From Dehalococcoidia bacterium (lineage in GTDB: Bacteria > Chloroflexota > Dehalococcoidia > UBA6926), in contig CBDCYO010000005.1 in assembly GCA_965224255.1 (NCBI GenBank), positions 963,223 to 1,027,222 of the forward strand: DNA of 64,000 nt, in the 5' to 3' direction. This document shows positions 3,086 to 19,603 of this stretch, piece after piece. The position numbers and the translations under genes are program-made. A model generated the notes under the pieces. The model was not told the DNA's origin. It did not search any database and worked only from the letters and a program-made list of their open reading frames with translations. Every line of letters starts with the position of its first letter. Positions within the stretch are counted from its first letter, which is position 1.

Positions 3086-3766
3086 CTAGTGCGCGGCGGC
3101 CGCGTCTGTCTGGGCGTTCGATGGCGCCCGCGTCCGCGATGATTGCCGGGCCGTCCCGTTCGTCGTCCGACGGCGCCGCTTTCTGGCCGGTTCCTTGTTG
3201 ACCCACAGGCCCTCCTGCGCCAACAAATCCGGGGTGAGAAGAGTGCGGAGGTCCGCCGTCTGCCACAAGTCAGGCGATTGATTCGACTCAAACGTGACGA
3301 CCTGCACGTACTTGCCAAGATTCTTGAGTGTCTGGATGGCGTATGCGAAGTCACCATCGCCGGATACCAGTACCGCCATATCATAGTAGTCCTGCCACGC
3401 GTAGTAGAGCAGGTCCGTGGCGAGCATGATGTCCACACCCTTTTCGACAACCTGCCCGTCACGCATGCGCGTGGTGCCAAATCGCGTCTCCACGTAGGGA
3501 ATGAGATGCAACGCCTGCAAGAATCGCTGCTGCTGCTGGTGTTCTGCGGGGCGGCGCTTCTCGTCCTGGATGACGTTGTAGTAGTAGGTTCGAAAGAGGG
3601 GCCGCTCACCGGCGATCCACTGAATGAACGCCGCAAAATCCAGATCAATCCGGCCACACGATTCCTCGAGCGCATGATACAGATTGCTACCATCGATGAA
3701 GATGGCGATGCGTTCAGCGCCCTCGCGCCATGGGCGCGGCTCGTTCGTCAAACTGGCTGACTGCAT
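3086..3766 (-). CDS. NYN-domain (LabA-like, PIN-like) protein
   Basis: IAIFIDGSNLYHA ... GVDIMLATDLL ... AVLVSGDGDFAYAI motifs typical of the NYN/LabA family; basic C-terminal tail. Confidence 0.75.
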   Translation of the reverse strand: MQSASLTNEPRPWREGAERIAIFIDGSNLYHALEESCGRIDLDFAAFIQWIAGERPLFRTYYYNVIQDEKRRPAEHQQQQRFLQALHLIPYVETRFGTTRMRDGQVVEKGVDIMLATDLLYYAWQDYYDMAVLVSGDGDFAYAIQTLKNLGKYVQVVTFESNQSPDLWQTADLRTLLTPDLLAQEGLWVNKEPARKRRRRTTNGTARQSSRTRAPSNAQTDAAAAH

Positions 3767-8079: not shown

Positions 8080-9051
8080 CTACTCCTCCAACCCTCGGCC
8101 CGTCAGACGCAGGAAAACGTCCTCGAGGTTGGCGGGGCGGGAGTATGCCCGAGCACCCTGGAGTGGCCCCGCGGTGAGGTCGATCCCATCGAGCCCGAAT
8201 GCGTGCACCGTGTCCGGTGTCTGTTCGATCTCCGCGCCCGCGCTGTGCAGATACTCGGCGACGCGCTCGAGGGCAGCAGGGTTCAATGACTGCGCCTCGA
8301 TGACGGTCTCACCCGCGGTGCGCATGATCAGCTCCGCAGGGGATCCCTCCGCGAGGATGCGGCCCTCGTGCATGACGATCAGCCGATCGCACAACGTCGC
8401 CGCCTCGTCCATGTAGTGCGTCGTGAGGAGCATGGTGACGCCCTGATCCTTAAGGCGACGCAGCGTGCGCCAAACCAGGTGGCGCGCCTGAGGATCCAAT
8501 CCCGTCGTCGGCTCATCCAGCACAAGGATCGATGGCTCGTTGATGAGTCCCCGTGCAATCAGTAACCGCCGCTTCATCCCGCCGGACAGTTCATCCACCT
8601 TCGCTCCCGCGCGATCCGCCAGTTGGAAGAGTTCCAGCGCATGCATGGCTCGGGAGTGCGCCGCTGAGCCATTGATCCCAAAGTAACCCGCGTAGAGGCG
8701 TAGGTTGTCGATCACGGACAGCTCATCGTCCAGGTTGTCGCCCTGCGGCACGATGCCGATCGTAGACTTGATGACCCGCCCCTGTGACTGGACTGGCAGG
8801 CCGTTCACAAGCAGCGTGCCCGCCGTCAGCGGAGAGACGCACGCGATCATGCGCATCGTGCTCGTCTTGCCTGCGCCGTTCGGGCCGAGGAATCCAAAGC
8901 ACTCGCCGGGCCGCACATCAAAACTGATGCCGCGGACGGCGATGAGATCACCAAACTCCTTGATCAGCCCTCGCGCGACAATGGGCATGACGACGCCATC
9001 CGCGGGCGTGTCCTTCGTCGCCACCTGCTGAAGACGATCTATGCGAGCCAT
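8080..9051 (-). CDS. ABC transporter ATP-binding protein
   Basis: Walker A GPNGAGKTS, signature LSGGMKRRL, Walker B ILVLDEPTTGLD, H-loop TTHYM. Start placed at MARIDRL (ATG 9051-9049); the track N-terminal extension to 9513 overlaps the upstream TPR gene and lacks homology. Confidence 0.85.
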   Translation of the reverse strand: MARIDRLQQVATKDTPADGVVMPIVARGLIKEFGDLIAVRGISFDVRPGECFGFLGPNGAGKTSTMRMIACVSPLTAGTLLVNGLPVQSQGRVIKSTIGIVPQGDNLDDELSVIDNLRLYAGYFGINGSAAHSRAMHALELFQLADRAGAKVDELSGGMKRRLLIARGLINEPSILVLDEPTTGLDPQARHLVWRTLRRLKDQGVTMLLTTHYMDEAATLCDRLIVMHEGRILAEGSPAELIMRTAGETVIEAQSLNPAALERVAEYLHSAGAEIEQTPDTVHAFGLDGIDLTAGPLQGARAYSRPANLEDVFLRLTGRGLEE

Positions 9052-9109
9052 GCTATGAAAATCGTAGCACGGCCACATCGGTCGTGAGCGCCCGGGCTGC
9101 TCGGCGTCG

Positions 9110-10084
9110 CTATCCCAACTCCTCCGAAAATGGCGCCATTGCACGCGCCAGATCACTCCGAGCATGAGCGCGCACCAACCCCTCACCCTCCGGCGGATCG
9201 TCCTCATCATCCGATGTATCACGCGCTGGCGGGCCGCCCAGGCCACGGTCAACAAGGTCGTGCGCGTTGCGGACGTACCCTCGGAATTCGGAGCCACCGG
9301 ACGGCGGGAAAGACGGACGCCCCCGCTGGGAGGGATGCTGATACACCTCGCCGATGATGACCTGCACGCCATCGATGGCATGATCGCGCAGGAACGCCGC
9401 CTCGTATCGATTACCCGCGTCCATGAGTGACAGAATCCGTTGAGCAAGCTGAGGATGGACGCGGCCCACCACGTCCCCACGGCAGGAATGCAAAGGCAAC
9501 CTGCTGCCCTCACGGGTCAGTGTCAACAGATCACCACTGCTCAAGCGGCCGACCGCGTCGGGGTCCGGTACGTCAATGAGCGTTGCGATGGTGCGTTTGC
9601 CCGCATCATTCATCAGCAGATGGCCGGAATGGACGTTGCGGTTCAGCGTCTCCGGGCTAACGTGGAGAGTGTTCGGCGTCGGTGCGGTGCCCGTTGCCCC
9701 GGCCTTCCGCGCAGATCTGATTCCTGCCGGTGCGGGCCCGGATGGCACGGCGCCGTTTGCCCTGCGTGTCCCGGACGCAGCCAACTTCCGTGTGCCTTCC
9801 ACTCGCTCAAGCCGATCGCGATTGCGGCGAGCAATCGTGTTTGACGGATCAATCCGAAGAGCGCTCTCGACAGCCTCGCGCGCCTCGTGAAGCTCTTCCA
9901 TCTCAAGCAGCGCCTTGGCGAGTCGATTCAGCGCCTCGATGTTCGAGGGCGCGAGCCGGAGAAGCGCCCTGTTGACCTCAACAGCCAGCCGCCAATCCTG
10001 GCTCAGCGCATAGGCAATGGCTGTTTCTGTCAGTTCCCTGGTTTTGCGGACGCGGGTGCGCTCATCTATTTCTACTGCTGTCAT
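9110..10084 (-). CDS. TPR-repeat protein with an uncharacterised C-terminal domain
   Basis: TPR-like helical repeats (AIAYALSQDWRLAVEVNRALLRLAPSNIEALNRLAKALLEMEELHEAREAVESALRIDPSN), then a ~170-aa domain with no recognisable motifs. Start assigned to MTAVEID (ATG 10084-10082). Confidence 0.5.
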   Translation of the reverse strand: MTAVEIDERTRVRKTRELTETAIAYALSQDWRLAVEVNRALLRLAPSNIEALNRLAKALLEMEELHEAREAVESALRIDPSNTIARRNRDRLERVEGTRKLAASGTRRANGAVPSGPAPAGIRSARKAGATGTAPTPNTLHVSPETLNRNVHSGHLLMNDAGKRTIATLIDVPDPDAVGRLSSGDLLTLTREGSRLPLHSCRGDVVGRVHPQLAQRILSLMDAGNRYEAAFLRDHAIDGVQVIIGEVYQHPSQRGRPSFPPSGGSEFRGYVRNAHDLVDRGLGGPPARDTSDDEDDPPEGEGLVRAHARSDLARAMAPFSEELG

Positions 10085-10351
10085 AGCGGATGCCCTGCCT
10101 CCCATGACCCGAATAACACCTCTTGGCGCAGGGAACACAGAGACGGGACGCAATGAACGCGACAACCTGGCAGGGTCTCCCGTAGGACACCAATTCGACG
10201 CCGCGACACGGGCTGCCACAGCATCAGCCGCCGCCTCATCGTTCCTGCCGCCTCCCCGCGCTAGTGGACGGCAGTTTTCGAACTCAGTCCAAAATCTATT
10301 GTCCGCTATGTGTCAACCCCACAGCGAGCATGGGGGAACGCCCGGTGAGCC

Positions 10352-13300
10352 TCAGACGCGCGCCCCGGCCGGCAGGGACGACAGCTCTGCCAGCGAGGCA
10401 ACGATGTCGGTGGTACGAAGGCTGACCGTCGTCACTCGGTGCAGCAGGTCGATGACGTGTTCCTTATGATCCGCAAAGCGATAGCTGTTGAAGTGCTCCC
10501 GAATCGTTGGGTCGCGAGGCGGCTTTTCTTTGTACTGATCGATGATCCACTCGAGGGCGCTGCGGTTACCCAGGCGATACTCCCAGGCCCCGGACGGCAC
10601 ATCGTGCAACGTCGTCTGCTCATCCAAGCGGATGATGCCCCGCCCCGTGTCCGCCCTCAGCATGGCCTTGGGCGTGGCACCCTCGCCACGACCCGCCAGA
10701 ACCGTGTCGACGCGCCTCAGGGGATACGGGTCCGCCGACTCAAACCCAATGTGCACGTCAAGGAGCTCCTGACCCAGGCGCGCCCACTCATGGAAATCGT
10801 CATGGAACGGGAGCCTGGGAAACCCGCGCGTCAGGTCGATGGCGTATTTCTCACGCCAGACGGGGTCATGCAGGGCGGCATAGGTGTACGCGAATATCTG
10901 CTCCGGCGTGATGGACTCGTCATCATAGCGGTCACGGAACTGGCGCAAACCCCATTCCGTGATGTTGCTCACGCGCGTCCCATCCTCCCGGTAGCGATAG
11001 AGGGGGAGGCATTGGGTATCACCAGTGAGATGGAGGTCTGGAAGCCGATTCGTGGCCAAAGCGCGAAACGGTACCGCCCCGGCGATGTTCAGGAAGCAAA
11101 TAACGCGGTTGTCACTTCGGAGGTCCTGGCCAAACATCTCGTAGTGGTTTGCTGTCAGCCTGTCGCTCATTTCGCGCACCGAGGAATAGTGCTTAGCGAC
11201 GAACGGTCTGTAGGAGGCCATTACAGGTGTGGACTCGGAATAATCAATCTTGCGGGATGCTTGAAGGTGGTTCCTAAGGCCCTCACTCCACTTTATTGCC
11301 AGATCGAGATTCCTGTCCCCATTGTCGACTGAAGTATTGAATCTGGCGGCAAAAAATGACGTCTTCGCCCCAAGCTGCCGCTCATCGAAGTCATATACCC
11401 ATTCGTCCCGTGCAGTGACGACGCCAGGGGAATACAGGCCGAACACCGCATTCTCATCTGCACGACTCTTGGCGAGCTTCGTCTCGCGGTTTGCTACGGG
11501 AATCAATGACTCGAAATCAGAATCCGATTGGTTCAGCCAGTTGGCTTTTGCGTCAGGAACAATCTCTGTGAACGGCGTAGCGGCGAGATTAAGCCCCTTT
11601 ACGAACCTGATCTTATCGGGAGCCTTTGTATAATCCGCGACTCTCCCATAGTGAATGCGAAACAGGGAACTCTCGCCCTTACGTACGAGAAAATAGATGG
11701 CGACTCCAACTCGGATCTTGTCTTCAAAGACATTCCCACCTTCACGCCTGCGTCTCTCACCTGAAGTCCGCGCGTTGCCGGTCATGTCGACAAGCCACAA
11801 TTCATTGAATTCTTGCGCCACGATTTTGCGGAAGCCATCGTCCTGGTGCGACTGTAGAAAGGCGCGGTTGGTGACAAACGCGATGATGCCGTCGTCTGCG
11901 AGCCGGTCTGACGCCCAGCGGATGAAGCGCTTGTACATGTCGTACTGTTTCGACTTCTGTGCGGTACTCTTCTTGACGTATGTCTCCTTGATGCGCTGAT
12001 CAATGGCCGGGTATTTCCTGTTTGGATTCAGATCATTCTCGTTCTGCTGGTTGGCGTTGTACGGCGGGTTGCCGATGATGACGCTGATCGTGCGTTCATT
12101 CTGGGTCTGCACGCGCATCCAGTTGTCGACTGAGAGTCCCCCCAGATTGAACCCCGACTGGCGAGTGACGGCTTCGCCCCCCGCGCCACTCTGTTGCCAG
12201 TCCATGTTGTCCAGTGTGTCGACGAAGGCGAGTCCGGGAAATCTGCTGTACGATCCGGTGCGCTCCTTGTAGGTGTATTCGATGTTGAGATTGGCGATGT
12301 AGTAGGGAAGAATGGCCATCTCATTGGCGTGGATCTCATTGTGGTACTTGTAGTCCAGTCGGTCATGGGGCAGGTGGTTGATGAGGCTGGTGATGAACGT
12401 GCCCGTCCCCGTGGCCGGATCAAGGATCTCGACGTTGTCATCCGCCAGCGAGCGGCCAAAGTGCGTCTTCAGCAGGTAATCCGTTCCTTGAATCATGAAG
12501 TCGACAATTTCGTTGGGCGTGTAGACGATGCCGAGCCTGTCGGCGTCTTTCGGGTTGTACGCCTTGTAAAAATCCTCGTAGATCACCTTGAGGAAGGTCT
12601 GCTTTTCCTGAAAGTCGGAGATGGTGTCGGCGGCACGAGCGATTGCCCCGTAGTAGGCCCGCAGGCGGTCAATGCTGTTGCGCCGAACAGCGCCAGTGAA
12701 GAATGTGCCCTCAAGGTCGTTCAACTGGCTGGCGATTGTGTTCTCGCGGTGAAACTGATCCTCGGCAAAGACGCGCAGGAAGATGTCCTTGGTGAGGATA
12801 TGCTGCAACAGCATCTCGCGAACGTCGCCCTCGGAGACATCGCCACCAATGGTCCCGCGGCAATGCTGGAGGAACGCTGCGGCCTTGCCGCGGTAGGTCG
12901 CGTTAGCGGCCTCTGCCTCGTCGATCGTCTCACGGAGGCCGCTCAACACAGTGGGCAGATCAGTGCTGAATTGCCGTTGCGCCCTGCGAAACTCTTCGAT
13001 CTCAGGAAGTTCATAGTCGAGAAATCTCGTTATGAGGCGATGGAGATCGGGCGCCTCCGCCATGTTGGTGCGCATGGCCTCAGCGCCGTTCTGAAAGAGC
13101 ACGGCAACGCGGCTGTCCTCAAAGATGATGTTGCTTCTCGGGTAGCCGCGATTGAGCTTGTTCTGGATCTCCCTGTCAAGGTCGTCCCTGGTATCCTTAG
13201 CCTCCCAGTACCCGCGAGCAAGGCGCAGGCTGTCCTTCACCGTGCCGTCGGGACGGTTCCTGTTCCCCGACTCCAACTCGGGCACGAGGGCAAGGCGTTC

Positions 13301-13438
13301 AGGATGATTCCGGCAATAGCCGTCAAGGCATACTTCAAACGCACGCCTGGTTGAGGATTCGTTGGCTGACCCACCATAGGTGATGAGCCTGTTCAGTTCC
13401 TCGTGATAGGCATCAATGTGTGGGTAGGCGGAGGCCAT
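10352..13438 (-). CDS. Type IIG restriction-modification enzyme, MmeI-like (N-terminal PD-(D/E)xK endonuclease + gamma-class N6-adenine methyltransferase + C-terminal target-recognition region)
   Basis: 1028 aa. N-terminal D-X9-E-X-K (KDSLRLARGYWEAKD). SAM motif I LDPATGTGTF. Motif IV IIGNPPYNANQ (NPPY). Long C-terminal region without motifs (TRD). No separate M, S or R gene adjacent. Confidence 0.7.
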   Translation of the reverse strand: MASAYPHIDAYHEELNRLITYGGSANESSTRRAFEVCLDGYCRNHPERLALVPELESGNRNRPDGTVKDSLRLARGYWEAKDTRDDLDREIQNKLNRGYPRSNIIFEDSRVAVLFQNGAEAMRTNMAEAPDLHRLITRFLDYELPEIEEFRRAQRQFSTDLPTVLSGLRETIDEAEAANATYRGKAAAFLQHCRGTIGGDVSEGDVREMLLQHILTKDIFLRVFAEDQFHRENTIASQLNDLEGTFFTGAVRRNSIDRLRAYYGAIARAADTISDFQEKQTFLKVIYEDFYKAYNPKDADRLGIVYTPNEIVDFMIQGTDYLLKTHFGRSLADDNVEILDPATGTGTFITSLINHLPHDRLDYKYHNEIHANEMAILPYYIANLNIEYTYKERTGSYSRFPGLAFVDTLDNMDWQQSGAGGEAVTRQSGFNLGGLSVDNWMRVQTQNERTISVIIGNPPYNANQQNENDLNPNRKYPAIDQRIKETYVKKSTAQKSKQYDMYKRFIRWASDRLADDGIIAFVTNRAFLQSHQDDGFRKIVAQEFNELWLVDMTGNARTSGERRRREGGNVFEDKIRVGVAIYFLVRKGESSLFRIHYGRVADYTKAPDKIRFVKGLNLAATPFTEIVPDAKANWLNQSDSDFESLIPVANRETKLAKSRADENAVFGLYSPGVVTARDEWVYDFDERQLGAKTSFFAARFNTSVDNGDRNLDLAIKWSEGLRNHLQASRKIDYSESTPVMASYRPFVAKHYSSVREMSDRLTANHYEMFGQDLRSDNRVICFLNIAGAVPFRALATNRLPDLHLTGDTQCLPLYRYREDGTRVSNITEWGLRQFRDRYDDESITPEQIFAYTYAALHDPVWREKYAIDLTRGFPRLPFHDDFHEWARLGQELLDVHIGFESADPYPLRRVDTVLAGRGEGATPKAMLRADTGRGIIRLDEQTTLHDVPSGAWEYRLGNRSALEWIIDQYKEKPPRDPTIREHFNSYRFADHKEHVIDLLHRVTTVSLRTTDIVASLAELSSLPAGARV

Positions 13439-17543: not shown

Positions 17544-18326
17544 CTAGATGATAAAGATCTCCGGGTTGTGCGCCGCCACGGCTTCCCATAGTCGCATAGC
17601 CCTTTGTGTTCCTCCCTGCTCAGCCGGATCAATCACCATCCTGCCGGAACGTGTATAGGAGCCGATGGTTTGTAGTTCGGTGCGGTTGGCGCTCCATATC
17701 CATGGGCGATTCTGCGCAGTCAACAGGGTGGCCTCCGTGAATTCACGATCAAGCGGCACTGCTCTGAGCAACCGCAAAGAGGCCCTTGGATCTCCTTTCC
17801 ACACCCAGAACTTGTTGAGCGCGCCTGAATGGTAGGCTGCACGCCGGATATGGGCGTTCGCGCCAAACACTGTGAAGTCGCGTCCCTTGGGGAACTCTGT
17901 CACGTCCCGCAGCACCTCTGTCACACGAAAGAAGCCGATGAGATAGAACCCCGCCGCGTTGTCCTCCGCGACAAGCCGGGCAAGAAAGATCAGGTAATCG
18001 CCGGGGCCACATGACGTCAGGCCCGCTGCCCGTCCCGTCGTCTGCGGGTTGTCGCCGTATGTGAACGTGCGGAACTCCGGGTCATCGTGCAGCCGATCAT
18101 TCCACCGCGAAACGGAGGCATAGTCTGCGAGCGTCCTATCCGGGTCGTTGAAGGCTGTGAGTTTAGGGTACGCTGGGAGGGTGGGTGACCACCATCGTCG
18201 TTCCTCCGGTATGGGCAGAAACTCAAATGTTCCGTCGGCGAAGATGGGACTTCGGAGAGAGCCGTGAGAGGCGTTTACACCGACGTTGACAAGGAAAAGA
18301 CGCGCGGCAGGATCAACAGAAACCAC
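17544..18326 (-). CDS. Hypothetical protein, 260 aa, no recognisable family
   Basis: Long ORF with reasonable codon usage and no motif I can assign. Convergent with the PD-(D/E)xK-like ORF. GC somewhat below flanking genes. Confidence 0.5.
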   Translation of the reverse strand: MVSVDPAARLFLVNVGVNASHGSLRSPIFADGTFEFLPIPEERRWWSPTLPAYPKLTAFNDPDRTLADYASVSRWNDRLHDDPEFRTFTYGDNPQTTGRAAGLTSCGPGDYLIFLARLVAEDNAAGFYLIGFFRVTEVLRDVTEFPKGRDFTVFGANAHIRRAAYHSGALNKFWVWKGDPRASLRLLRAVPLDREFTEATLLTAQNRPWIWSANRTELQTIGSYTRSGRMVIDPAEQGGTQRAMRLWEAVAAHNPEIFII

Positions 18327-18358: not shown

Positions 18359-19603
18359 GTGCGGATAGGGGCGGCATTCTGTGAGCAATCACGTATGAAT
18401 GGTAGCAGTGATGCGCAAAGCGCGACGCAGGCCGTGAAGGACGCCGCCACACGGGCTGGGTTCGACGTCGTTGGCATTGCGTCCGCAGATGTCTTTCGTG
18501 AGCGCGGAGAGACCGCGAAGGAGCGCGTATCCGAAGGTTTGATGGACGGCCTGCCCTGGTTCACTGAAGAGCGCGTCGAACGCGGCATGGACCCGGAAAC
18601 CCTGATGCCCAATGCCCGTTCGATCATTTCCCTGGCCTTGAGCCATCACTACGAAGGTTCCGCCGATCCCTCGGACACCCTGCCACGAGGCCGCATCGCA
18701 CGCTATGCCTGGGGAGAGGATTACCATCGCGTATTCGCCCGCCAGGTGCGCTCTTTCATCGCACAGTTGCCCGATGTGACGGGCGAAAAGGACATCGGGA
18801 CGAAGTGGTACACAGATACGGGGCCACTGCTTGACCGTGCCGTCGCGGAACGTGCGGGCGTCGGCTGGTTCGGGAAGAACACCAATATCCTCACCGCGCA
18901 GGGCTCATGGATGCTGTTGGCGCAGATCATCACGACGCTTGACCTCATTCCGGATGAGCCTCTGAAGAAAACGTGCGGCGCGTGTGCCATTTGCATTGAC
19001 GCGTGTCCAACAGCCGCAATCGTTGCGCCCTATGTGGTGGACAACCGCAAGTGCATCTCGTATCTGACAATTGAAAATCGCGGCAGTATTCCACGTGATG
19101 TCCGTGCCCTGATTGGTGACTGGATTTTCGGCTGTGATGTGTGCCAAGACGTGTGCCCCGTAAACCGTAAGGCGCGCGTTGGCGCAGCCTACGCGGATCT
19201 GACGCGGGATGCCGAAAACCGTGCCCGCCCGGAGTTGGTGGAGCTGCTGTCTCTTGATGACGCCGGATTTCGAGAACGCTTCAAGCAGAGTTCGGTCCTT
19301 CGAGCCAAACCTGAAGGAATGCGTCGCAATGTCTGTGTCGCGCTTGGCAACATCGCCGACACCACGACAGTCGTTCCCCTCACCCATGTCATGCGTACGG
19401 ATTCCTCACCCATCGTACGTGGCCACGCCGCGTGGGCCCTTGGACGCATCGCTGACACCGCAGCCGTGACGGCGCTTGAGAACGCGTTTGCAGAAGAGAC
19501 GGATGCCGGAGTTCTGGGAGAGATCAGAGAGGCCCTGCGTGAGGCGAGAGCCCGGCATACTGACTCCCAACAGGACGGCGAGAAACGCTACCTCCCCGTG
19601 TAA
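18359..19603 (+). CDS. queG: tRNA epoxyqueuosine(34) reductase QueG with C-terminal HEAT-repeat extension
   Basis: Two 4Fe-4S ferredoxin motifs (CGACAICIDACP; CDVCQDVCP), CISYLTIE motif, and C-terminal HEAT-like repeats (HAAWALGRIAD). Confidence 0.85.
   Translation: MRIGAAFCEQSRMNGSSDAQSATQAVKDAATRAGFDVVGIASADVFRERGETAKERVSEGLMDGLPWFTEERVERGMDPETLMPNARSIISLALSHHYEGSADPSDTLPRGRIARYAWGEDYHRVFARQVRSFIAQLPDVTGEKDIGTKWYTDTGPLLDRAVAERAGVGWFGKNTNILTAQGSWMLLAQIITTLDLIPDEPLKKTCGACAICIDACPTAAIVAPYVVDNRKCISYLTIENRGSIPRDVRALIGDWIFGCDVCQDVCPVNRKARVGAAYADLTRDAENRARPELVELLSLDDAGFRERFKQSSVLRAKPEGMRRNVCVALGNIADTTTVVPLTHVMRTDSSPIVRGHAAWALGRIADTAAVTALENAFAEETDAGVLGEIREALREARARHTDSQQDGEKRYLPV

What the first reader, a model, noticed from the sequence alone, without database searches (positions are those of the whole stretch)
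10352..13438. Solitary MmeI-like Type IIG restriction-modification gene with a low-GC target-recognition region
Single 1028-aa polypeptide with N-terminal D-X9-E-X-K (KDSLRLARGYWEAKD, same spacing as MmeI), FxGxG (DPATGTGTF) and NPPY. No separate methyltransferase or specificity gene is adjacent. The C-terminal ~300 codons (coordinates ~11200-12100) are distinctly AT-richer (~48-50% GC versus ~64%) than the catalytic part. That pattern is expected if the target-recognition domain was acquired or swapped by recombination (specificity switching in MmeI-family enzymes occurs through TRD changes).
Basis: partly seen in the sequence, partly recalled or inferred. Interest (0 to 1): 0.5.

Follow-up and report, generated by a model that had tools for sequence, protein, structure and literature searches.

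The report
DrdV-type single-chain restriction-modification enzyme gene
This is an intact gene for a one-protein restriction-and-methylation defence enzyme of the already solved DrdV type (not the MmeI family), and its AT-richer stretch is the DNA-reading cassette, which is AT-richer and swapped by recombination in every relative examined, so the gene is an ordinary new member of a known kind.

Summary
The 1028-aa ORF at 10352-13438 (-) is real and intact. It is a full-length homologue (about 50% identity, E=0) of DrdV, a structurally solved single-chain Type IIL/IIG restriction-modification enzyme. [quoted passage not shown] It is not an MmeI-family member: no MmeI Pfam domain hits, and MmeI (5HR4) is not found even with a family profile. 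All DrdV nuclease residues (D64, E79, K81, K94, E27) and methylase residues are kept. All five recognition-domain base-contact positions differ from DrdV, so a target other than CATGNAC is likely.

The GC dip is real: 52.6% at 11200-12100, the lowest 900-bp stretch in the window. It is shallower than claimed and lies mid-gene (aa 447-746), not in the last 300 codons. The true block is aa 526-800 (11039-11863), with GC3 0.61 versus about 0.77.

The same dip occurs in 54/54 relatives from Dehalococcoidia and 7/7 plasmid relatives, so it marks the family's recognition cassette rather than a one-off import. Cassette replacement is shown directly in relatives. A syntenic orthologue differs from this gene specifically at aa 685-807. 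Verdict: new member of a known kind, with modest interest.

The parts
10352..13438 (-). Complete gene for a 1028-aa DrdV-type single-chain restriction-modification enzyme (Type IIL/IIG), including the stop codon
   Evidence: ORF list and translation. Full-length match to DrdV 7lo5/7lvv, E=0, 1020 bits. PADLOC REase_MTase_IIG E=0.
12989..13438 (-). N-terminal PD-ExK endonuclease domain (aa 1-150)
   Evidence: Aligns to the DrdV nuclease domain. DrdV E25, D64, E79, K81 and K94 correspond to E27, D64, E79, K81 and K94 here, all conserved and invariant in the family alignment.
13196..13252 (-). PD...ExK catalytic motif, P63-D64 ... E79-A-K81
   Evidence: Coordinates checked by translation. Residue roles taken from the DrdV cryo-EM paper.
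12557..12988 (-). Helical connector / coupler (aa 151-294)
   Evidence: Pfam ISP_coupler PF22240, aa 156-275, E=4e-11. Corresponds to the DrdV helical connector that forms the dimer interface.
11522..12556 (-). Gamma-class N6-adenine methyltransferase domain (aa 295-639). Motif I DPATGTGTF is at 12395-12421 and motif IV NPPY at 12059-12070.
   Evidence: Pfam N6_Mtase and Eco57I. DrdV methylase spans residues 295-635. Motif coordinates.
10355..11521 (-). Target recognition domain (aa 640-1028)
   Evidence: Pfam Type_ISP_C PF18135, aa 665-998, E=2e-81. DrdV recognition domain spans residues 636-1029.
11039..11863 (-). Variable, low-GC3 recognition cassette (aa 526-800). It covers methylase loop III plus the first ~160 residues of the recognition domain (up to aa 800), and carries the equivalents of DrdV base-contact residues N548, R554, D564, N673, R721 and Y764. 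D803 and K807 lie at its edge.
   Evidence: GC 53.0% and GC3 0.61, against GC3 of 0.79-0.80 in the flanking parts. Lowest conservation in the family. Contact residues.
11018..11386 (-). Sub-block (aa 685-807) that differs specifically from the syntenic orthologue
   Evidence: blastn between the window and syntenic L079 aligns 16355-11385 and 11017-10391 but not 11018-11384. Identity is 47% to syntenic P0003 and 63% to non-syntenic P0002.

Best explanation
The gene encodes an intact DrdV-type, ATP-independent, single-polypeptide restriction-modification enzyme (Type IIL in the DrdV authors' terms, Type IIG by architecture). From N to C terminus it has a PD-ExK nuclease, a helical connector, a gamma-class N6-adenine methylase and a recognition domain of the Type ISP kind.

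By homology with DrdV (inferred, not shown here), the methylase and recognition domains clamp a short asymmetric target and flip one adenine. On isolated host sites the enzyme slowly methylates that adenine on one strand. When several unmethylated sites are present, DNA-bound monomers join through the connector and nuclease domains and cut both strands a fixed short distance downstream.

The AT-richer stretch is the enzyme's specificity cassette (aa ~526-807), made of methylase loop III plus the first ~160 residues of the recognition domain (up to aa ~807). Across this protein family the cassette is the least conserved part. It is replaced as a unit or in two sub-units by homologous recombination between the conserved flanks. 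It is always poorer in GC at synonymous sites than the rest of the gene.

This gene is a long-term resident of its chromosomal site. Its cassette has no close relative in the databases, and its base-contact residues in the recognition domain differ from DrdV. It therefore most likely recognises a sequence other than CATGNAC.
For: Identity of the gene:
- Full-length homology to DrdV: phmmer E=0 over aa 10-1016; family profile scores 1278 bits.
- LlaGI and LlaBIII match aa 189-1019 only.
- Pfam domains are ISP_coupler, N6_Mtase/Eco57I and Type_ISP_C.
- More than 8000 homologues were found, the 120 listed being 995-1120 aa long.

Activity residues:
- Nuclease residues D64, E79, K81, K94 and E27 are conserved, as are methylase residues N457, Y460 and F571.
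- Among DrdV base contacts, Q494, K495, K497, R563 and D573 are kept. R557, A676, E719, A763, H803 and D807 differ.

Composition of the cassette:
- GC3 of aa 526-800 is 0.61 against about 0.77 elsewhere in this gene.
- In 54/54 species-level relatives GC3 is 0.589 in the block against 0.812 elsewhere.
- Total GC in 51 relatives: flanks 0.603, gene core 0.603, block 0.499, with the block lower in 51/51.
- The dip is regional, not tied to fast-evolving codons. Columns at least 90% conserved have GC3 0.61 inside the block and 0.83 outside.
- The block is also lower in 7/7 plasmid-borne relatives from other phyla.

Recombination:
- Pairs with at least 95% core identity have block identity anywhere from 40-50% to above 90%.
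- P0009 and P0012 are identical outside aa 461-800.
- L001 and L077 are syntenic, with the block dissimilar at DNA level.
- P0068 and P0103 have block identity 0.99 against core 0.91.

Residency:
- L079 has the same gene order: QueG, Nmad3, GHMP kinase, aspartate kinase, glycosyltransferase, RM, TPR.
- The RM protein is 78% identical between the two loci, against 50-79% for the neighbours.

Precedent:
- LlaGI and LlaBIII are more than 95% identical in the first three domains and less than 50% in the methyl-transfer/recognition third, with the last ~100 aa again similar (PMC3553950).
Against: - No experiment or methylome is available, so activity, target and cleavage distance are inferred from about 50% identity to DrdV.
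- Residues of the DrdV nuclease-nuclease interface (K8, R12, D15, E41) are not conserved. The oligomerisation details may therefore differ.
- For this gene itself no donor or alternative allele at the same locus with near-identical flanks was found. The evidence for replacement rests on one syntenic orthologue that is about 74% identical in DNA. Very fast divergence of aa 685-807 cannot be fully separated from replacement, and which lineage changed is undetermined.
- The cause of the family-wide low GC3 is not established.
Confidence: 0.82

Rival explanations
1. One reading: an MmeI-family Type IIG enzyme whose recognition domain was recently imported from a lower-GC donor, leaving a compositional scar in this particular gene.
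For: - The architecture is the same as MmeI (nuclease, methylase, recognition domain in one chain), and a D-X9-E-X-K string is present.
- The region is the lowest-GC 900 bp in the window.
- The closest core relatives (P0004, P0006, P0008; 85-88% identical) are only 42-52% identical in the block.
Against: - No MmeI Pfam domains hit, and MmeI 5HR4 is not hit at E<=10 with a family profile although it is present in the library.
- The catalytic Asp is D64, not D69.
- The dip is present in 54/54 and 7/7 relatives with mean size -0.22 GC3, against -0.16 here.
- No donor was found: best block identity is 68% in the top hits and 50% full-length among 1.84 billion representatives.
- The gene sits at a conserved chromosomal position.
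Confidence: 0.05
2. The low GC is not historical but compositional. It would reflect an amino-acid bias (Asn/Lys/Tyr/Ile-rich motifs) or relaxed codon selection at fast-evolving codons, with no recombination needed.
For:
- Block GC3 correlates with core GC3 across relatives (r=0.62), so the block partly tracks host composition.
Against: - In aa 526-800 the GC at positions 1 and 2 is similar to the rest, and the deficit is at position 3.
- Highly conserved columns inside the block have the same low GC3 (0.61) as variable ones, while poorly conserved columns outside keep 0.76.
- Clean cassette replacements are seen directly.
Confidence: 0.08
3. The gene is a decayed or methylase-only derivative of a Type ISP enzyme that lost its helicase, acting as an orphan methyltransferase or being non-functional.
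For: - The methylase and recognition half is homologous to LlaGI and LlaBIII (E about 1e-116 to 1e-118), and PGAP names such genes 'type ISP restriction/modification enzyme'.
- No helicase domain is present.
- Some relatives are disrupted (L045, L061, L066, L069, L072).
Against: - The N-terminal 188 aa are not a leftover. They align to the DrdV nuclease and connector with every catalytic residue conserved and invariant across 21 relatives.
- DrdV itself, with the same 1029-aa layout, is an active endonuclease.
- The ORF is uninterrupted and has no repeats or frameshifts.
- A full-length PADLOC model exists for this architecture.
Confidence: 0.05

Closest known systems
DrdV (PDB 7LO5/7LVV), Type IIL restriction-modification enzyme recognising CATGNAC (Shen et al. 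2021, bioRxiv 10.1101/2021.01.06.425610)
   Same: - Same length (1029 versus 1028 aa), same four-domain order and colinear alignment over aa 10-1016, E=0.
- Nuclease residues D64, E79, K81, K94 and E25 are conserved, as are the NPPY motif, the aromatic residues around the flipped base and the methylase-side base contacts Q, K, K, R and D.
- No ATPase domain.
   Different: - Identity is about 43-61% depending on the segment.
- All five recognition-domain base contacts (N673, R721, Y764, D803, K807) and methylase N548 are replaced, so a different target is expected.
- Residues of the DrdV nuclease-nuclease interface are not conserved.
- The target sequence and cut distance of this enzyme are unknown.
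[quoted passage not shown]
   Same: - The coupler, methylase and recognition domain are homologous (aa 189-1019, E about 1e-116 to 1e-118) with the same Pfam domains.
- Same mosaic pattern. LlaGI and LlaBIII are more than 95% identical up to the AdoMet-binding part, less than 50% in the methyl-transfer/recognition third, and similar again in the last ~100 aa (PMC3553950).
- The recognition loops I-VI described for LlaGI (PMC4872093) fall partly in the variable block; by a hand estimate from the alignment these are loops III-VI.
   Different: - There is no SF2 helicase-like ATPase and no Mrr-type nuclease, and the N terminus does not align.
- The protein therefore cannot translocate, and cannot use the collision mechanism that requires head-to-head sites.
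MmeI family (PDB 5HR4; Morgan et al. 2009, PMC2731913)
   Same: - Works alike in outline: one chain with an N-terminal PD-ExK nuclease, a gamma-class m6A methylase and a recognition domain.
- No separate methylase.
- One-strand modification and a need for several sites are shared between MmeI and DrdV.
   Different: - No detectable sequence similarity and no MmeI Pfam domains.
- Catalytic Asp spacing is X14, not X9.
- MmeI enzymes cut 20 bases from the site, whereas DrdV cuts at 10/8.
Type I hsdS specificity subunits (recognition-domain shuffling)
   Same: Specificity changes by recombinational exchange of recognition domains between conserved flanking sequences (titles and abstracts listed).
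   Different: - Here the exchanged block lies inside a single catalytic polypeptide and includes part of the methylase domain.
- No silent cassettes or inverted repeats are nearby: there are no extra copies in the window. This looks like allelic replacement rather than a phase-variable shufflon.

Membership tests
DrdV-type Type IIL/IIG single-chain RM enzymes | Colinear full-length sequence similarity to DrdV | tested here: met
   phmmer E=0, 1020 bits, query 10-1016 against chain 8-1024. Family profile scores 1278 bits.
DrdV-type Type IIL/IIG single-chain RM enzymes | N-terminal PD-ExK nuclease with DrdV catalytic residues D64, E79, K81 (plus E25 and K94) | tested here: met
   D64, E79, K81, K94 and E27 are conserved and invariant in 21 relatives.
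DrdV-type Type IIL/IIG single-chain RM enzymes | Helical connector, gamma-class N6-adenine methylase (motif I, NPPY) and a C-terminal recognition domain of the Type ISP kind, with no ATPase | tested here: met
   Pfam ISP_coupler, N6_Mtase/Eco57I and Type_ISP_C, with no helicase family hit. Motifs located.
DrdV-type Type IIL/IIG single-chain RM enzymes | Methylates one adenine on one strand of an asymmetric site, and cuts at a fixed short distance only when several sites are bound | not testable with these tools
   Needs a methylome or biochemistry. Inferred from DrdV.
MmeI family | BLAST-level similarity (E<1e-20) along the whole length of MmeI (criterion of Morgan et al. 2009, PMC2731913) | tested here: not met
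   MmeI 5hr4 is present in the library but absent from the hits of the protein at E<=1 and of the family profile at E<=10. No MmeI Pfam domain hits at E<=0.1.
MmeI family | Catalytic D70-X9-E80-X-K82 nuclease motif | tested here: not met
   A D69-X9-E79-X-K81 string exists, but the residue homologous to the DrdV metal ligand is D64, giving D-X14-E-X-K.
MmeI family | Cleavage 20 bases from the site | not testable with these tools
   Needs biochemistry. The closest characterised relative, DrdV, cuts at 10/8.
Type ISP (LlaGI/LlaBIII) | Homologous methylase-recognition unit (coupler, methylase, Type_ISP_C) | tested here: met
   E=3e-118 and 4e-116 over aa 189-1019; Pfam domains.
Type ISP (LlaGI/LlaBIII) | SF2 helicase-like ATPase and Mrr-family nuclease in the same chain | tested here: not met
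   The protein is 1028 aa, and the LlaGI alignment starts at chain residue 588 against query residue 189. No helicase or Mrr Pfam hit.
Type IIG (R and M activities in one polypeptide) | Nuclease and methylase domains fused, with no separate M or S gene needed | tested here: met
   PADLOC REase_MTase_IIG PDLC03621, E=0, aa 8-1022. The neighbours are housekeeping genes.

The most novel reading that the evidence does not exclude
The recognition cassette of the whole DrdV / Type ISP superfamily (methylase loop III plus the adjoining ~160 residues of the recognition domain) may be a compositionally distinct module.
- It is about 10 points lower in GC and about 0.2 lower in GC3 than its own gene and host in 54/54 + 7/7 genes examined, even at invariant codons.
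- It appears to be built from two sub-modules (aa 526-650 and 651-800) that assort almost independently (rho 0.14).
- It is exchanged between conserved flanks.

If this signature reflects a horizontally circulating cassette pool, these genes would be a natural system for studying how restriction specificity diversifies and how recombination shapes base composition. The same would hold if it reflects the absence of GC-biased gene conversion in a segment too divergent to recombine internally. This window's gene would carry a previously unseen cassette, and so a new specificity.
Probability: 0.3. Interest if true: 0.5.

Novelty: new member of a known kind. Interest (0 to 1): 0.3.

Why it matters
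For this window it mainly corrects the label. The gene is a DrdV-type enzyme rather than an MmeI-type one, and it probably has a new, still unknown recognition sequence. That could interest enzyme hunters and anyone trying to transform or read methylomes of Dehalococcoidia.

The wider point is that the low-GC stretch should not be read as a scar of one horizontal event. It is a constant feature of the family's specificity cassette. The cassette boundaries seen here lie at aa ~460-540 on the left and aa ~800-814, at the conserved TQCLPLYRY motif, on the right. They give natural junctions for engineering chimeric specificities.

Tried and rejected
- A second homologous-protein search with the block alone returned only short fragment proteins and none of the full-length relatives. 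It could not name a donor.
- The exhaustive representative search with the block found nothing above 50% identity over the full block, or 63% over part of it.
- The look-up of encoding contigs found no record for P0001 or P0006. The listing of cluster members gave no names or accessions.
- I looked for silent or partial cassettes that could drive phase-variable switching. tblastn of 174 family proteins against the window hit only the gene itself.
- No tandem repeats lie in or next to the gene. Promoter-like and terminator-like matches are at or below shuffle expectation, so no regulatory claim is made.
- No synteny was seen with 76 GTDB loci, which at first suggested a mobile gene. This was overturned by the syntenic locus L079.
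- Structure prediction and fold search were not run. A solved structure of a homologue about 50% identical makes them unnecessary.
- The target sequence was not predicted from contact residues, because no validated code exists for this family.
Full report
**The observation.** The ORF 10352..13438 on the minus strand is real: 1028 codons with an ATG start.
DPATGTGTF is at aa 340-348 and NPPY at aa 457-460.
- The GC dip is also real. 11200-12100 is 52.6% GC and is the lowest 900-bp stretch of the 64-kb window (mean 60.9%, sd 2.3%).
- The numbers and the location need correcting. The dip is not 48-50%, and the rest of the gene is 58-61% GC, not 64%.
- Because the gene is on the minus strand, these coordinates encode aa 447-746, which is the middle of the protein, not its last 300 codons.
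- Codon-position analysis separates two effects. At aa 447-525 the third codon position is normal (GC3 0.76-0.88), and the low GC comes from an Asn/Lys/Tyr-rich amino-acid composition.
- The real synonymous-site dip is a sharply bounded block, aa 526-800 = 11039-11863, with GC3 0.61 against 0.79-0.80 on either side.

**What the gene is.**
- Pfam finds ISP_coupler (aa 156-275), N6_Mtase/Eco57I (284-552) and Type_ISP_C (665-998). It finds no MmeI domain.
- Against solved structures the best match is colinear and full length to DrdV (7LO5/7LVV; E=0, 1020 bits, aa 10-1016). LlaGI and LlaBIII follow, over aa 189-1019 only.
- A profile of 21 relatives gives the same three hits and nothing else of note at E<=10.
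- MmeI (5HR4) is in that library but is never hit.
- PADLOC has a full-length model for this architecture, REase_MTase_IIG, E=0.
- DrdV is a 1029-aa Type IIL enzyme with a nuclease, a helical connector, a methylase (295-635) and a recognition domain (636-1029). It recognises CATGNAC, methylates one adenine, and cuts 10/8 downstream once several DNA-bound molecules assemble.
- I transferred residues from the printed alignment by script. The nuclease site (D64, E79, K81, K94, with DrdV E25 corresponding to E27 here) and the methylase site (N457, Y460, F571) are intact. They are invariant in relatives.
- Of the twelve DrdV base contacts, the methylase-side ones are kept (Q494, K495, K497, R563, D573). 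N548 and all five recognition-domain contacts are replaced (R557, A676, E719, A763, H803, D807). A different target is therefore likely.

**Context.**
- The neighbours are housekeeping genes: ABC transporter, TPR protein, GT2 glycosyltransferase, aspartate kinase and GHMP kinase. There is no methylase, specificity, integrase or transposase gene, and the only tRNA is 46 kb away. 'Solitary' is correct, as expected for this enzyme class.
- Relatives in the genome collection are nearly all from Dehalococcoidia/Chloroflexota MAGs, and none of those 76 loci shares flanking genes with the window.
- The locus of P0003 (L079) does share the window's gene order: QueG, Nmad3, GHMP kinase, aspartate kinase, GT2, RM, TPR. 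The RM protein is 78% identical between the two loci, and the neighbours are 50-79% identical.
- The gene is therefore an old resident of this chromosomal site, not a recent arrival.

**The low-GC block is a family property.**
- I extracted 54 full-length genes from different species and aligned them by codon. The block aligned to aa 551-800 has GC3 0.589 against 0.812 for the rest, and it is lower in 54/54 genes.
- Total GC in 51 relatives with enough flanking DNA is 0.603 in flanking DNA, 0.603 in the gene core and 0.499 in the block (here aa 526-800). The block is lower in 51/51.
- This gene's dip (-0.16 GC3) is ordinary for the family.
- The dip is regional. Columns at least 90% conserved have GC3 0.61 inside the block and 0.83 outside, while poorly conserved columns outside keep 0.76.
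- The dip also appears in 7/7 plasmid-borne DrdV-like and Type ISP genes from Rhizobium, Devosia, Dermacoccus, Xanthomonas, Kitasatospora, Klebsiella and Arthrobacter (-0.04 to -0.18).

**The block is the specificity cassette and it is exchanged.**
- The block is the least conserved part of the protein.
- It contains the equivalents of DrdV contacts N548, R554, D564, N673, R721 and Y764, with D803 and K807 at its edge.
- By a hand estimate from the LlaGI alignment, it corresponds to recognition loops III-VI of LlaGI (loop positions from PMC4872093). The conserved C-terminal part would then correspond to the 'guide' subdomain, which that paper says does not read bases.
- Core and block identities are poorly correlated across 174 sequences (rho 0.37). 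For comparison, two non-variable parts of the protein (aa 51-525 and 801-1000) correlate at 0.60.
- Pairs with at least 95% core identity have block identity from 40-50% up to above 90%.
- P0009 and P0012 are 100% identical over aa 1-460 and 801-1028 but only 20-80% identical between.
- Their loci (L001, L077) are syntenic and 96-99% identical in DNA, except for about 900 bp (aa 514-814) with no blastn similarity. That is a clean allelic replacement.
- The reverse case also occurs: P0068 and P0103 have block identity 0.99 against core 0.91.
- The two halves of the block assort almost independently (rho 0.14).
- The same mosaic is published for LlaGI and LlaBIII (PMC3553950).

**This gene's own cassette.**
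- Its closest core relatives (P0004, P0006, P0008; 85-88% identical) are only 42-52% identical in the block.
- The best block match is P0002 at 68%. No sequence reaches 70%.
- An exhaustive search of 1.84 billion representatives gave at most 50% identity over the whole block.
- Against the syntenic orthologue, DNA aligns on both sides but not across 11018-11384 (aa 685-807).
- That sub-block is 47% identical to syntenic P0003 but 63% identical to non-syntenic P0002, which also shares this gene's contact residues (A676, H803, D807).
- P0003 carries the DrdV-like 'PSLDLLEKTQC' loop.
- This supports replacement of a sub-cassette in one of the two lineages. Which lineage changed, and how recently, cannot be told.

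**Verdict.**
- The gene is a new member of a known, very large family, and its exact protein sequence is already in public databases.
- The family-wide compositional signature of the cassette is the only mildly unexpected result, and its cause is not established.

Noticed in passing
L001:11542-12442 versus L077:7542-8439: Two syntenic Dehalococcoidia loci are 96-99% identical in DNA, yet carry unrelated ~900-bp recognition cassettes (aa 514-814) inside otherwise identical RM genes. Both cassettes are 51.4% GC against about 60% for the rest of the gene.
   Followed up: yes
L045:12277-13500 and L061:11950-13301: In two relatives the RM gene is interrupted by a 1.2-1.35 kb insertion inside the variable block (near aa 650-764). 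The nature of the insert (IS element, intron or other) was not examined.
   Followed up: no
L066:~11375, L069:~11329, L072:~11286-11338: Three relatives change reading frame at about aa 449-459, just before or at the NPPY motif. This could be pseudogenisation, a recurrent switch point or long-read assembly error.
   Followed up: no
window 17544-18326 (-) and 18359-19603 (+): A gene with an Nmad3 domain (nucleotide modification associated domain 3, E=1e-20) lies divergently next to an epoxyqueuosine reductase QueG-like gene. The pair is conserved in the syntenic locus L079, and an Nmad2 gene lies near the RM gene in L077.
   Followed up: partly
L079:10001-13087 (protein P0003): The syntenic orthologue carries 'PSLDLLEKTQC' and 'NRD', identical to the DrdV contact loops (D803/K807, N673). 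It may read part of its site as DrdV does, unlike the window's enzyme.
   Followed up: partly
window 8080-9513 (-) versus 9110-10219 (-): The ORF of the ABC-transporter ATPase overlaps the TPR gene by about 400 bp. The ABC domain only starts at aa 194, so the true start is probably much further downstream than the first GTG.
   Followed up: no
window 3086-3766 (-): A gene for a NYN-domain (predicted RNase) protein lies among housekeeping genes. It has no obvious link to the RM gene.
   Followed up: no
L080, L082, L084-L087 (plasmid relatives): NCBI annotation names both helicase-containing (~1600 aa) and helicase-less (~1030 aa, DrdV-like) proteins 'type ISP restriction/modification enzyme'. 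The label is therefore misleading for the short form.
   Followed up: partly
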